Assembly: GCA_951406725.2 (NCBI GenBank)
Contig: OX597828.1
Span: 12,276,001-12,340,000 of the forward strand
Direction: 5' to 3'
Length of the DNA stretch: 64,000 nt
Source of the DNA: Octopus vulgaris
Taxonomy: Eukaryota
This document shows positions 60 to 59,085 of the stretch, one piece after another (position 1 is the first letter of the stretch; every line of letters begins with the position of its first letter). Below the pieces are notes generated by a model that searched no databases, had not been told where the DNA came from, and was given only the letters and a program-made list of their open reading frames with translations. The translations under genes and the position numbers were made by a program.

Positions 60-908
60 AAAACTCTTTTGCCTTTTACCATTTACTTGTTTCAGTCATA
101 AGCTAGTGGCCATGGTGGGGCATCACCTTTTTGCCACAAGAATCGAGCCCAGTACTTATTTCACTTTTTAACCCTGCGACTTATTATATCGGTCAATTTT
201 GCCGAACCGGTAAGTTACGTGGACGTAAAGAAACCAACGCCAGTTGTAAAGAGGTAGTGGTGGGCAAGCACAGTCACAAACACCATACACACACACACAC
301 ACACACACACATATATATATACATATGATAGATCGTTAGCCACTACACACATTTTTTTCTCTCCTTGTTTTTTATGTGTACCTTTCTGTAGAAGAGCGTA
401 GGCTCGAAACCTAAAAGACTTTTTCTATTCCTGAGCGTTATACTAATACATCTGTTTGTTATGTACACCACCTGTTTTCGTAATCTTTCCCTATATATAT
501 ATATATATATCAGAAGGATGTGTTATAATACTATTCCATAGCCATACCAACAATCCAACGTACCTCCAGCATCAGCTGCCTTACGGATATCATTATGGTT
601 TCGACACCTGGGCAGTATCATTCAATCTGGCGATGTCAACAGCACTAAAATAAGTGTTGTTTAGGAACAGATCAAAGAACCACAACTTTTGAACACATTT
701 ACCCTAGGTACAACCGTATCGATAGATAAATTCACTAAATAAATTACAACCATTCCTGAATATGTAACCATACATCTTCTTTTCAGTTGCTCTCTACCAA
801 ATCCACTCGCTCGAAGTTATAGTAGAAAACCTCTGCCCAAGATGCCACGCAGTGAGACTGAACCCGGAAACGTGATTGGGAAGCAAACGGCTTACCACAC
901 AGCCACGC
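60..908 (-). mobile_element. tRNA-derived SINE (family A, head GGCTGTGTGGTAAG), split by insertions into its internal (CA)n/(TA)n tract
   Basis: The 3' part (60-326) and 5' part (775-908, cttaccacacagccac) both match the copy at 14316-14713 in reverse complement. Unrelated sequence lies at 327-775. Confidence 0.8.
382..417 (+). ncRNA. degenerate minimal type I hammerhead motif in a Penelope-like terminal fragment (~330-492)
   Basis: cttt-CTGTAGA-A-GAGC gtag GCTC-GAAAC-CTA-aaag. Core and stem III are mutated. It shares downstream tcctgagcgt...aatac...tttgtt with the 46670-46885 element. Confidence 0.5.
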
Positions 909-2669
909 GAATTCGCTTGATTTTGCGTAACGCTAGAAAAATATAAATCACAAAACTTATAAATTTCAGATGAAAATAAAATAAAAATTATTCTTGAATA
1001 TGGGTTAGAGTCTCAGATTTATACAAACGCATTCGAAGATGTAGGCGGTCGGCTCTTTCGATTGCTCCTAAGACTACAGATCCATAATTAGTGTAGTATA
1101 TGTTAACGTCTTTCATGATCTCTTTCGAGCTATATAGAGTGAACATTTACTTACTGGAGATGAAAAGACGGTGTCTTAAATTTGTAGTGAGTAGATAGTG
1201 GTTGATTATTGGCTGATGGACACATTGTAAGCCAAGGTTTCCCGCCATTCGATTTCCCTTTTTCTCTCCATATGACTGAGTGCGTGCATGCGAAGCAATG
1301 TAATTGGGCGTCTCGTGTTTGTATTAAAACTTTCGTCGGCGTTTTGTACCGATGCTGTTGTTCCCATGTGTGGAATATTATATGAATGTAATGCAATATC
1401 GCTAATCATCTTTGAAAGAAAAACAACAAAATAAACATTAACTAAATCCAAATAAATAAATAAATGGCCGCTCTCCGAAGTAATGGGTGTGTCAATTTAC
1501 ATGTGATAAATAAATCAGGGTAATGATATTAGTTAATGATTGAAATTTAATCATAGATAATCAACAGAAATTATACATCCTTAGAATTGAAAACTGACAA
1601 ATGTTAACTCGAATCGATCGAATTAGGTTTCAAAACGCATGCTATTCTTGTTTTCCTAGATTTCTTACTACTACTACTACTACTACTACTACTACTGTTG
1701 CTGCTGCTACTGCTGCTGCTGATGATGATGATAATGCTACTAACTATTATTATTATTATTATTATTATTATTATTGTTGATATTGTCGTTGCTGTTATGT
1801 CGGCGGTGAGCGAGCAGAGTGGTCGGCACACCGCGCAAAATGCTTAGCTGTATTCATCTTTTCGTCCTGAATTCAAAGTAATATATTTTCAAACATTAAA
1901 TAGCCTGCACTTCCTCAGCATTTGAAATTTGAATAAATGTTAAAAACAGACGAAAAAATTACAGTCTTTGATATTCATTTTTTAAGAATATCAACCATAT
2001 GGTTGATGCACAAAAAACAAAAACAAGACAACCTAGCTGAAAAAAATAGGGTAAAAAATAATGATAATAAACGTAAAACGAATTAACATTTAAATAAAAT
2101 ACGACTGAGAAAACAGAAAGATAGATAGATAGATATATATATAGATAGATAGATAGATAGATAGACAGATGTGTGTTTGTGTGTGTGAATGTATATTAGA
2201 TACATTTGTTTTACAGAGGTGTAAATCTACGTAAGTGTCTCAAGTCCGAGACTATTTTTGTGCACTGCATTTATTAACATAGATATGGTCCGTTGCTTTC
2301 TGCCTGCAATGAGTGATACTTTGTTTTATTGAAATATTGGTATAGAGACAAGAAAGAATAAAGTAAATGCGGGTAAAACAGTGTTGAAATATAAGAAAAA
2401 GATAACAAATCTTTGAAAGACGCAACGAACATTTTAGGAAAATAAAAATAAGAAATGAGTGGAAATTTTACCAGTGAGTGTGTTAAATTATAAGGCACAA
2501 AAAGAAAATGACTCTCCCCAGACACAACAGATAATAAATCAAAATACACGTAAGTTTTTAGCCTCATCTACTTTCATAGGGCACATTGCAATCTTCTGAT
2601 ATATTGCTTCTAAAGTGTGAATTGAGTTCGTATAGCAGTTGAGGAATATTAAAAGGAAATAATCTTGCA

Positions 2670-3060
2670 ATTGAGAAGTAATGCTTATCGCCACTTCAAT
2701 ATGGCTGTTCTGTAGGAACCGGCGTTACAACCGCTTTAAACCCCAAGAAGGGGAGCCACCTCCAGCGGGTTAGCGATGCAATCTGCACCTGATATATATT
2801 GCAAGCAAGGGAGTGAACGCTTACTATGGACGGATATCCACCACTGAGGATAGGCACAAATAGCTCAAAACCGTACGGTCTGGTGGTCCCGCCGTCAGCT
2901 AAAATATGGTAGGGGTTCGCTCCCCTGCTTGCAGTACATATCGGGTCCAAAGTGCATTGATAACCAACTGGATGAAAATCATCCTGGGGTTAAAAACGGT
3001 AGTAACGTCGGGTCCTTCGGAACAGCCATATTGAAGTGGCGATAAACATCACTTCACAAT
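2670..3060 (+). mobile_element. non-coding element with ~78-bp terminal inverted repeats and a central hammerhead
   Basis: 2670-2747 is an imperfect reverse complement of 2983-3060. HHR motif at 2838-2886. Confidence 0.75.
2838..2886 (+). ncRNA. type I hammerhead ribozyme motif (G12 mutated)
   Basis: Stem I ccacca/tggtgg; CTGAGGA; imperfect stem II; AAAAC in place of GAAAC; palindromic stem III ACCGTACGGT followed by C (GUC site). Confidence 0.7.
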
Positions 3061-4269
3061 ATAGTTACTATATTCATCTCTTATAGAGATTTTCTAACTA
3101 ATCATTTAACTATTTTTCTGAAATGACTGAATGGAGGAATCTGTGCTGGACAGTGCCTGAGAATGGGTACAGTGTGTGTGAATTTGTGAACAAATTAGTG
3201 TGAATGTATATCCGAGTAACTGAAATGATTGTTGAAGGTTGGTGTATATGTGTGTCCGTGTGTATAAGTGAAGAGTGACCTGCATATGTGCGTTTAAGAA
3301 GGAAGGGATGCAAATGTTCGAGTGAAGGCTTTGAGTGTGGAAGTGTATATGTTGGACGGTGTGATTTTTTGCTTGTGAAAGGTCTAATTTCGTGTCACTC
3401 TCTCTTTCTTTCTCTCTTTCACTCTATGTATATATATATATATATATATATATGTGTGTGTGTGTGTGTGTGTGTGTGTGTGTGTGTGTGTGTGTGTGTT
3501 CGTGTGGATACATGCTCATGTGGATACGAAAAGAAATAACAATTGGTGGGAAGACGTTGAAAAGAAATAAATAAAAGCTATAAGGCACAAATGGGTGATT
3601 ATGTATCCAGAAATTGGAGCGCGGACGTAGAAGTGCAGGCGAGATAAATTAAGGCTAAGAGTTTAAAACATGAGGGATGAAAGATTGTAGAAAGCGAGAG
3701 ATGAGAGAAACGTTGTTTGAAGCAAGCTGAAGACCGTGAAGCTGGGGCGATGACAGAGAGGTCCTCGGGTCATAGGTTTTATACCGGAGTGTCCTCCTAG
3801 ACAGGCTACTGATCATGGCTAACGAGCCCCATCTACTCGGAACGGCCTGATTATACTGCACCAGACACCCACAGACGTCTTCCCTTATTGGTTTATGTCC
3901 ACGTGGTACCACGAGGAGGCGAGGGTAGAACTTGGGGTTTGCGTCACTCGGTGCTCGTCCATACTAGCATCCGGTCACTATGAGGATTCTATACATTACA
4001 CACACACACGCATATATATATATATACATATATATATATATATAGAGAGAGAGAGAGACAGACAGACAGACAGACTTAGAAATAATAATATTTATATATA
4101 TATATATATTTAAATGGATGAATGGATTATCCTTTGTTTACCGTTAACATGGAAAATTCAATAAACAGTTACCAGGGTAGCAACATTCACGCAAGTAACA
4201 TGGATGAAGCGACCTATTCAAAGGTAGAAACTCCGGGTTAATGTGCAGTAATTTGTGTATTATAAATAA

Positions 4270-58404: not shown

Positions 58405-58627
58405 CAGTGATTCTAAACCATTTTACTAATGGACCCCTTTGATTTGTATTTAACTTGGATGGACCTTCATAACCATTCAATTACACCCTATTACACTTTT
58501 GTAATTAAATATTATTAATTATTTGTAAGAATTGTTAAAAATACTGTGTATTGTAAAAGTATAACCAGTTTATTGGACGCAAATTTGAGCAACAAAATCT
58601 TGTATGGACCCCGGTTGAGAGCCACTG
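58405..58627. mobile_element. hAT (Charlie-type) MITE
   Basis: TIRs cagtgattctaaacc / ggttgagagccactg; flanks agctagag / atctagac resemble the NTCTAGAN target. Confidence 0.7.
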
Positions 58628-58835
58628 ATCTAGACGATACACTCACAGTTGCCATGATATAACTAAAGTCTTCTATTTTGTGTTGCATATCCTCCGTTTG
58701 TCCTCGTCTAATGGTTTTTATGTAAAATGTACTTGGAGGCAAATTTTGACTACTTATACATCGAGGTAACATTTCAAATTAGATGTTATAAATTTGTCGA
58801 TACTCCATAGTTTTTTAGTGAGATATACTGATTTT

Positions 58836-59085
58836 GTGCTTCATGACGTAGTGGTTAAGAGCGCGGGCTACTAACCCCAAGATTCCGAGTTCGATTCCAG
58901 GCACTGAATAATAATAATAATAACAACAACAACATCGAAAGATACATTAGAAATGAGAACCCAGGCTCGAAATTTCCCCAAGACACCTGATGAAGGCTGG
59001 AGGGTATATCAGCCGAAAGGTTGTGTTAACAAACAAGATGAGGACAAATATCCGTCTATTGTAAAAAAAAAAAATGTAAATAATT
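58836..59085 (+). mobile_element. tRNA-headed SINE-like element with a 3' hammerhead motif (58982-59027)
   Basis: A box tgacgtagtggttaag, anticodon-like arm gggctactaaccc, B box gagttcgattcc, (AAT)/(AAC) linker, then gacac-CTGATGA-A-GGCTG...CAGCC-GAAAGGTT-gtgtt and an A-rich end. Confidence 0.75.

What the first reader, a model, noticed from the sequence alone, without database searches (positions are those of the whole stretch)
382..59027. Dense population of small hammerhead-ribozyme elements, many in or beside (TA)n microsatellites
Seen in sequence: type I HHR folds (CUGANGA...GAAA...NUH closed by stem I) at 2838, 4549, 17453(-), 21926, 23243, 23813, 41043, 46777(-) and 58982, with decayed ones at 382, 14221, 18181(-), 38441(-) and 47258. 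Their stems and flanks are mostly unrelated in sequence, so they represent many families. Most have a short palindromic stem III (ACATATGT, ACGTACGT, ACACGTGT, ACATGT, ACGT, ACCGTACGGT), and the modules are 200-550 bp with no ORF. Established knowledge: Penelope-like elements (PLEs) carry minimal type I HHRs in their pseudo-LTRs, such HHRs can cleave as dimers via a palindromic stem III, and metazoan non-LTR retrozymes are non-coding HHR repeats. Inference: this genome hosts a very diverse set of PLE-dependent ribozyme mini-elements that favour (TA)n, at roughly one per 5 kb here.
Basis: partly seen in the sequence, partly recalled or inferred. Interest (0 to 1): 0.9.

Follow-up and report, generated by a model that had tools for sequence, protein, structure and literature searches.

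The report
Penelope-mobilised hammerhead SINE among ribozyme repeats
Most of these ribozyme-shaped motifs are real ends or short derivatives of Penelope-type jumping genes, a known kind, but one family carries a tRNA-like stretch just behind its protein gene, where many copies begin, so it likely makes a short SINE-type RNA that would be copied by its own Penelope enzyme.

Summary
10 of 14 cited sites hold a type I hammerhead (HHR) fold: 6 near-intact and 4 decayed. Four are unsupported. Counts beat shuffles: 5 vs 0.05 in the window and 17 vs 1.0 in 400 kb sampled genome-wide, or roughly 110,000 per genome. The sites belong to different families. 4554 is the 3' end of a Hydra-like Penelope-like element (PLE). 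41049 is a 583-bp tandem retrozyme, 46807/382 are (TA)n mini-elements, and 17488 carries the U3-A8 core variant. These kinds are published. 'No ORF' and 'favour (TA)n' hold for some families only. The new part is family 58987. It is the 3' end of a Penelope/Poseidon-type PLE whose 3' UTR holds a tRNA-Arg-like A/B-box segment, (AAT)n and a minimal HHR. 14 of 20 mapped 5' ends fall in the first 10 nt of that segment, about 30 times the background rate. One copy is fused to U6 there. Best reading: a Pol III, SINE-like RNA made from inside the PLE and copied by the PLE enzyme. Pol III transcription and cleavage were not tested.

The parts
58848..58912 (+). tRNA-Arg-like head (part of the A box, and the B box). 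This copy begins at about head position 18.
   Evidence: BLAST of copy L167 to the window, 58848-59068, 89%. The family head aligns best to this genome's tRNA-Arg genes, z 7.4-7.5 vs shuffles. End coordinate approximate.
58913..58981 (+). Internal (AAT/AAC)n run and non-coding body of the tRNA-headed PLE end
   Evidence: sequence
58982..59027 (+). Minimal type I HHR with extra A after A9; predicted cut after 59022. The family stem III is ACGT; this copy reads AGGT.
   Evidence: 6,547 exact copies of its stem II 20-mer genome-wide vs 0 for the reversed control
59028..59095 (+). 3' end of the element (short class, without the optional tail)
   Evidence: end approximate
4100..4348 (-). Inverted, 5'-truncated second copy of the Hydra-like PLE end, next to (TA)n
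4340..4668 (+). 3' UTR end of a Hydra-like PLE with an intact type I HHR at 4549-4630 (long stem II, palindromic stem III; predicted cut after 4625), ending in (TA)n
   Evidence: the ORF lies upstream in L033 and L026
40792..41320 (+). Partial unit of a 583-bp tandem retrozyme, with a short inverted 5' piece (40792-40879), an HHR at 41043-41133 and (TA)n flanks
46672..46884 (-). About 210-bp mini-element in (TA)n with a minimal HHR at 46777-46811
   Evidence: 4,479 exact core-pattern matches for this and the 382 family vs 0 control
325..497 (+). Related mini-element with a decayed minimal HHR at 382-417
17221..17640 (-). About 360-bp-unit family: main copy with a U3-A8 core HHR at 17453-17493, plus an inverted 5' copy at 17504-17640
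2672..3055 (+). Older family (74-85% identity to relatives) with an inverted 5' piece and a decayed HHR at 2838-2886
21891..22021 (+). Truncated copy of another HHR family; decayed HHR at 21926-21986
23813..23907 (+). HHR-like fold with intact core and palindromic stem III, weak stems I and II; family not found
23243..23295 (+). Weak, broken HHR-like fold; an inverted relative at about 22560-22703 lacks the core

Best explanation
The window holds 5'-truncated ends and short non-coding derivatives of several Penelope-like retroelement families, most with a type I hammerhead fold, and in the 58982 family a tRNA-Arg-like segment sits 23 nt behind the stop codon of the PLE protein and likely acts as an internal Pol III promoter whose roughly 270-300-nt RNA would be reverse-transcribed by that PLE's own enzyme, a SINE nested in its partner. 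Shown: anatomy, copy numbers, RT and GIY-YIG-like coding upstream, inverted 5' copies, two 3'-end classes, and the pile-up of 5' ends at the head start. Inferred: Pol III initiation, mobilisation in trans, and ribozyme activity. Copies run past the predicted cut site, so the template was uncut. The palindromic stem III would allow cleavage mainly as a dimer, sparing single transcripts.
For: Coding partner: 27 of 30 loci picked by the endonuclease region carry the head behind it and 26 of 30 carry the HHR body. RT matches PF00078 at E 1.4e-10. The endonuclease region resembles GIY-YIG clusters at 0.97. Head: best match is tRNA-Arg among the 25 distinct genomic tRNAs compared; 4 of 6 heads hit a genomic tRNA profile at E<0.001, and the best of 200 shuffles reached E 3.4. 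One unit: 26 of 30 head-picked loci carry the HHR body. 5' ends: in 37 independent insertions picked only by an HHR 20-mer, 24 reach the head, and 14 of the 20 uncensored ends lie at +0 to +9. That is 0.066 per nt vs 0.002-0.003 on either side, p 3e-12. Control family 4554 shows 14 ends spread over 1.4 kb. A U6 snRNA is joined at head +1 in L165. PLE hallmarks: inverted 5' piece in 24 of 40 loci; long tail in 67 of 168 3' ends (crude count, overlapping loci included). RNA and contig depth step up 2.5- to 3.5-fold (RNA) at the head start.
Against: ARAGORN found no tRNA in 20 sources and Rfam gave no tRNA hit on the head. The lack of TTTT in the 271-nt majority sequence is not significant: 47% of shuffles contain one. 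Short and long copies are equally diverged (4.1% vs 4.8%) and no clear diagnostic change marks a short subfamily, so an independent SINE lineage is not shown. RNA reads cover both directions equally and show no pile-up of ends at the head or the cut site; the depth step may only mirror copy number. The 40 loci all come from the first 19 Mb of one contig. No intact full-length PLE or upstream pLTR was recovered. In a Poseidon element HHR cleavage was not needed for insertion in vitro (PMC11167929).
Confidence: 0.6

Rival explanations
1. All copies of the 58982 family come from the long PLE transcript. The tRNA-like segment is an old SINE or tRNA pseudogene captured in the 3' UTR, and copies end there because reverse transcription stalls or switches template at its 5' edge.
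For: Same divergence and no subfamily marks between short and long copies. The head opens with a small hairpin. 6 of 37 insertions run on into the ORF. No RNA end pile-up.
Against: A tRNA-like fold should block the enzyme at its 3' side, yet the rate inside the head is at background. The ends lie 13 nt or less upstream of the A box, where Pol III starts (established knowledge, recalled). The U6 fusion is at +1.
Confidence: 0.22
2. The long PLE transcript is cut at the tRNA-like fold by RNase P, as for tRNA-like elements in some long non-coding RNAs (recalled), and the released 3' piece is copied.
For: It also gives a fixed RNA 5' end without a separate lineage.
Against: The head does not pass as a cloverleaf. 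10 of the 14 clustered ends lie at +5 or before, at or upstream of where the mature tRNA end would fall by the alignment (inference).
Confidence: 0.1
3. One reading: all modules are autonomous-element-free ribozyme mini-elements that target (TA)n.
For: Fits 41049 (7 of 14 loci tandem, 583-bp period), and 46807/382 and 17488, where no ORF was seen in held copies.
Against: 4554 and 58987 continue upstream into PLE ORFs. 58987 and 2844 show no (TA)n excess.
Confidence: 0.06
4. The motifs are chance matches in AT-rich, repeat-rich DNA.
For: Applies to 4 of 14 sites. About half of the loose-descriptor representatives are at noise level. Single-strand folding z-scores are modest, -2.3 to +0.4.
Confidence: 0.02

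Closest known systems
Minimal type I HHRs of metazoan PLEs (Cervera and De la Pena 2014, PMC4209133; parts 1-2 of 4 read)
   Same: Thousands of heterogeneous, mostly single motifs per genome; extra nucleotide after A9; palindromic stem III; U3-A8 core variant; inverted pairs 100-700 bp apart.
   Different: Estimated density here is about 40 per Mb (about 110,000), against the 2,000-9,000 motifs per genome reported there with another descriptor. The parts read name no cephalopod and no tRNA-like head.
Non-LTR retrozymes (PMC7229834, passages and discussion read; bioRxiv 10.64898/2026.07.22.740005, parts 1-3 of 5 read)
   Same: Families 41049 and 17488: non-coding HHR units in tandem, monomers common, proposed to be non-autonomous PLE derivatives.
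   Different: Circular RNA not tested here. Family 58987 is not tandem in the copies seen and has a promoter-like tRNA head.
Schistosome SINE-like HHR retroposons, Sm-alpha/Sj-alpha type (seen only as passages of the review PMC6765202; the primary paper was not held)
   Same: Pol III-type promoter followed by an HHR in a short non-coding repeat.
   Different: Those are described as tandem repeats, with no partner element named in the passages read. Here the unit is dispersed, is the literal 3' end of a coding PLE, and shows PLE inversions and tail.
Penelope/Poseidon clade PLE, e.g. Anolis PAc (PMC11167929, parts 1-2 of 4 read)
   Same: RT followed by C-terminal GIY-YIG-like domain, minimal HHR near the 3' end, two 3' ends differing by a roughly 30-nt tail, AT-rich targets.
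   Different: tRNA-like segment and (AAT)n inside the 3' UTR, with 38% (14 of 37) of insertions starting there.
Hydra clade PLE (PMC8557442, section 11 and passages read)
   Same: Family 4554: C-terminal GIY-YIG-like domain without CCHH, CxxC and CxH around the conserved E and N, canonical HHR, insertion into (TA)n.
   Different: The CxCX5C linker was not seen in the copies read; no phylogeny was run.
tRNA-derived SINEs sharing a 3' end with a LINE partner (established knowledge, recalled)
   Same: tRNA-like head with A and B boxes, short, non-coding, 3' end of an autonomous retroelement.
   Different: The partner is a PLE, not a LINE. The head still lies inside the partner, and no separate SINE lineage is evident.

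Membership tests
Type I (minimal) hammerhead ribozyme | Core CUGANGA...GAAA...UH closed by stems I and II | tested here: met
   6 of 14 sites near-intact, 4 decayed; above shuffles
Type I (minimal) hammerhead ribozyme | Short palindromic stem III suited to dimers | tested here: met
   10 of 41 vs 0 of 73 controls with stem III unconstrained; self-duplex energies -1.7 to -16.4 kcal/mol
Type I (minimal) hammerhead ribozyme | Self-cleavage at the NUH site | not testable with these tools
   Fragmented RNA-seq showed no end pile-up, which is uninformative
Penelope/Poseidon PLE (family 58987) | RT followed by C-terminal GIY-YIG endonuclease | tested here: met
   PF00078; Atlas GIY-YIG clusters at 0.97, family on 15-21% of members. 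Pfam PF01541 itself did not hit L211.
Penelope/Poseidon PLE (family 58987) | CCHH motif present, no upstream CX2-5CxxC linker | tested here: met
   Read from translations of L190, L201 and L211, by eye
Penelope/Poseidon PLE (family 58987) | Inverted 5'-truncated copies and optional 30-40 nt tail | tested here: met
   24 of 40; 67 of 168
Penelope/Poseidon PLE (family 58987) | pLTR-ORF-pLTR tandem with intact ORF | tested here: inconclusive
   The longest copy (L209) is cut at its 5' side by other sequence
Penelope/Poseidon PLE (family 58987) | RT phylogeny within the clade | not tested
   No reference PLE proteins were on hand
Hydra clade PLE (family 4554) | C-terminal GIY-YIG without CCHH; CxxC and CxH flanking E and N | tested here: met
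   L033 and L026 translations vs description; Atlas lead, GIY-YIG on 11% of members; no Pfam hit
Hydra clade PLE (family 4554) | Insertion into (TA)n | tested here: met
   15 of 15
Hydra clade PLE (family 4554) | CxCX5C linker; RWK and DKT motifs | tested here: inconclusive
   Linker not seen in L033 or L026; the N-terminal part was not held
Non-LTR retrozyme (family 41049) | Non-coding tandem units, each with a type I HHR | tested here: met
   583-bp period, 7 of 14 loci tandem; no shared sequence beyond the repeats
Non-LTR retrozyme (family 41049) | Expression as circular RNA | not tested
   The single read-laying run was used on family 58987
tRNA-derived SINE (short form of 58987) | tRNA-related head with A and B boxes | tested here: met
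   both boxes intact in 10 of 14 head-start copies vs 8 of 27 endonuclease-bearing copies (crude test, differently selected sets). ARAGORN and Rfam negative.
tRNA-derived SINE (short form of 58987) | Copies begin at the head | tested here: met
   14 of 20 uncensored ends
tRNA-derived SINE (short form of 58987) | 3' end shared with an autonomous partner | tested here: met
tRNA-derived SINE (short form of 58987) | Transcription by Pol III | not testable with these tools
   The absence of TTTT is compatible but not significant
tRNA-derived SINE (short form of 58987) | Own lineage of master copies apart from the partner | tested here: inconclusive
   No clear diagnostic site in 27 short vs 23 long copies over 125 nt
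tRNA-derived SINE (short form of 58987) | Target-site duplications | not tested
   Inversions and simple repeats obscure the boundaries

The most novel reading that the evidence does not exclude
A SINE caught at birth with a Penelope partner: an autonomous PLE captured a tRNA-Arg promoter in its 3' UTR, and now sheds tens of thousands of Pol III-initiated, hammerhead-bearing copies. The host genome may have one of the highest hammerhead loads reported (over 100,000 near-intact motifs, dozens of families, both C3-G8 and U3-A8 cores).
Probability: 0.5. Interest if true: 0.75.

Novelty: new variant of a known kind. Interest (0 to 1): 0.58.

Why it matters
SINEs are known to borrow LINE enzymes. 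A tRNA-headed element that borrows a Penelope enzyme, with its promoter still inside the partner, would extend that rule to the third class of retroelements and show how a SINE can arise in one step. It gives a natural short substrate for testing what PLE enzymes need in trans and what the hammerhead is for, an open question in PMC11167929 and PMC8557442. A published octopus repeat annotation lists PLEs at 6.83% of the genome in 190 families and many unclassified SINEs (PMC13282606, parts 1-2 of 3 and supplement search); the parts read and the supplement search mention no ribozymes.

Tried and rejected
Rfam on the window: 0 at gathering; the 150 listed of 216 E-value hits were mostly miRNA models on microsatellites, rejected. 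ARAGORN: 0 in 20 sources. Rfam on the head: no tRNA. Pfam on the 4554 ORF: nothing significant. No RNA holder was listed by index; three raw RNA runs were laid, with no end pile-ups. The upstream extension of L209 gave no pLTR. TTTT absence was not significant. Inversion counts for 17488 (11 of 11) were not used as evidence because the query itself held the inversion. The head-picked set was not used for the 5'-end statistic. Three of the 40 pattern-picked loci were dropped as duplicates of others by shared flanks (L238, L239, L240). Our-findings look-ups returned nothing. Literature searches for a PLE-mobilised tRNA SINE found no paper describing one. The library lacks most subscription journals, and Repbase/Dfam, bioRxiv supplements and the data deposit of PMC13282606 could not be seen, so prior annotation is not excluded. 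PMC6685494 mentions short non-autonomous Penelope elements in butterflies without tRNA heads in the passages read. Two primary papers (schistosome ribozymes; dimer cleavage of PLE HHRs) were not held.
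Full report
Setting. The window lies on contig C15 of a 2.8-Gb, 227-contig genome. It is AT-rich and full of microsatellites. Among 13 ORFs scanned, only DNA-transposase fragments matched Pfam.

Observation. I wrote a type I HHR descriptor and scored the window. Six cited sites are near-intact: 4549, 41043, 46777(-), 58982, 23813 and 17453(-). 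Four are decayed: 382, 2838, 21926 and, weakly, 23243. Four lack a closing stem or core and have no relative in the held sequence: 14221, 18181, 38441 and 47258. Hits at score>=8 were 5 vs 0.05 in shuffles for the window. In 40 evenly placed 10-kb stretches they were 17 vs 1.0, and 30 vs 4 at score>=6. This extrapolates to about 110,000-180,000 motifs, not counting U3-A8 cores. Because descriptor hits are circular evidence for pairing, I repeated the scan without any stem III demand: 10 of 41 family representatives had a perfect palindrome there, against 0 of 73 control hits, and about half of the 41 are noise. A genome-wide pattern gave 12,313 vs 3,085. Its first 100 rows show several U3-A8 families, one as four copies about 361 bp apart.

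Families. (a) 4554: copies share a fixed 3' end at (TA)n and 5' ends spread over 1.4 kb. The longest carry a 437-aa open frame ending in a GIY-YIG-like domain whose motifs fit the Hydra clade description. The window copy is a truncated 3' UTR plus an inverted copy. (b) 41049: 583-bp units, tandem in 7 of 14 loci, in (TA)n: a non-LTR retrozyme. (c) 46807 and 382: about 200-bp minimal-HHR elements ending in (TA)n, with 4,479 exact core matches vs 0; no ORF or partner was found in the held copies. (d) 17488: the TTGATAA core is shared by most copies examined, so it is the U3-A8 covariant described in PMC4209133, not decay; the long hairpin is an inverted 5' copy with a different breakpoint in each locus shown. 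(e) 2844: an older family, with an intact or one-change fold in 4 of 11 relatives. The (TA)n link is strong for (a)-(c), partial for (d), and absent for (e) and 58987.

Family 58987. Copies show a head, an (AAT)n run, a body, a minimal HHR and a 3' end. The head aligns best to this genome's tRNA-Arg genes, though ARAGORN and Rfam do not call it. Head and HHR travel together in 26 of 30 loci. Some copies continue upstream into coding sequence. A search with that region returned 30 loci, 27 with the head 23 nt after the stop codon. Longer copies encode RT (PF00078) and a GIY-YIG-like domain with CxC and two histidines, as in Penelope/Poseidon. The HHR stem II 20-mer occurs 6,547 times exactly. 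The 400-kb sample held 8 matches in 6 stretches, which suggests tens of thousands of copies.

5' ends. I took 40 places from the pattern list, unselected for their upstream side, and dropped 3 duplicates. Of 37 insertions, 24 reach the head. Counting the farthest point reached by either member of an inverted pair, 14 end at +0 to +9, 3 inside the head, 3 upstream in the ORF or spacer, and 4 run off the stretch. The rate is 0.066 per nt at the head start vs 0.002-0.003 elsewhere. Adding 26 other copies gave 23 of 41 ends. One copy has U6 snRNA joined at +1. In three RNA-seq runs, depth rises 2.5- to 3.5-fold from the head start, on both directions and with no end pile-ups. This confirms the step in sequence abundance but not the promoter.

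Mechanism. Shown: the anatomy and distributions above. Inferred: Pol III starts at head +1 within PLE copies or their short progeny. The RNA keeps the PLE 3' end, so the PLE protein primes reverse transcription there and leaves its usual inversions (24 of 40) and optional tail, matching the two start sites found in vitro for a Poseidon element (PMC11167929). Copies extend past the predicted cut, so uncut RNA is the template, consistent with a dimer-dependent or protein-assisted ribozyme. Against full SINE status, short and long copies are equally old and share no clear diagnostic change. I therefore file it as working like a SINE, with membership unproven. Rivals are RT stalling or template switching (0.22) and RNase P-type processing (0.10).

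Comparison and novelty. Dense, varied minimal HHRs from PLEs, dimer-type stem III, the extra nucleotide and the U3-A8 core are in PMC4209133. Retrozymes and their PLE origin are in PMC7229834 and 10.64898/2026.07.22.740005; (TA)n targeting by Hydra elements is in PMC8557442; promoter-plus-HHR SINE-like repeats of schistosomes are in PMC6765202. The finding as written is thus a new, unusually dense member of a known kind (about 0.35-0.4 alone). A tRNA-like promoter inside a coding PLE, giving a SINE-like majority class, was not found in six searches, within the limits of the library. Verdict: new variant of a known kind, interest 0.58.

Noticed in passing
L165:1584-1674(-), abutting the head at 1582: U6 snRNA copy (Rfam RF00026, 66.9 bits) fused to position +1 of the tRNA-like head: a U6 chimera with a PLE-family element, like the U6-LINE chimeras I recall from mammals.
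   Followed up: partly
G000:C1:8134352-8135463 (one search list): Four U3-A8-core HHR motifs about 361 bp apart, a tandem retrozyme; several further U3-A8 families appear in the first 100 rows.
   Followed up: no
L033:21-1331, L026, L023: The Hydra-like PLE ORF contains an in-frame (AAT)n run encoding poly-asparagine of variable length between RT and endonuclease.
   Followed up: no
window 38395-38540(-): Possible decayed HHR with a 5-bp, monomer-type stem III and branched stem II next to (AAT)n; core and stem I are broken and no relative was found.
   Followed up: partly
window 23761-23826: Near-perfect 66-nt hairpin formed by a short inversion directly upstream of, and including, the 23816 HHR core.
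   Followed up: no
window 45692-46222(+) and 42793-43287(-): Tc1/mariner-type transposase HTH fragment (PF01498) and a DDE_1 fragment (PF03184).
   Followed up: no
window 12838-13203 and 31823-32196: 183-184-bp tandem pairs of a very common dispersed repeat, with further copies at about 10284 and 32832.
   Followed up: no
L079, L062, L056, L083, L089: Further unrelated long-stem-II HHR families with palindromic stem III in the random sample; L079 alone has four hits in 10 kb.
   Followed up: no
L031 about 1000-1100; L044 about 2150-2200: Different HHR families inserted next to one another in the same (TA)n tracts, forming nests.
   Followed up: no
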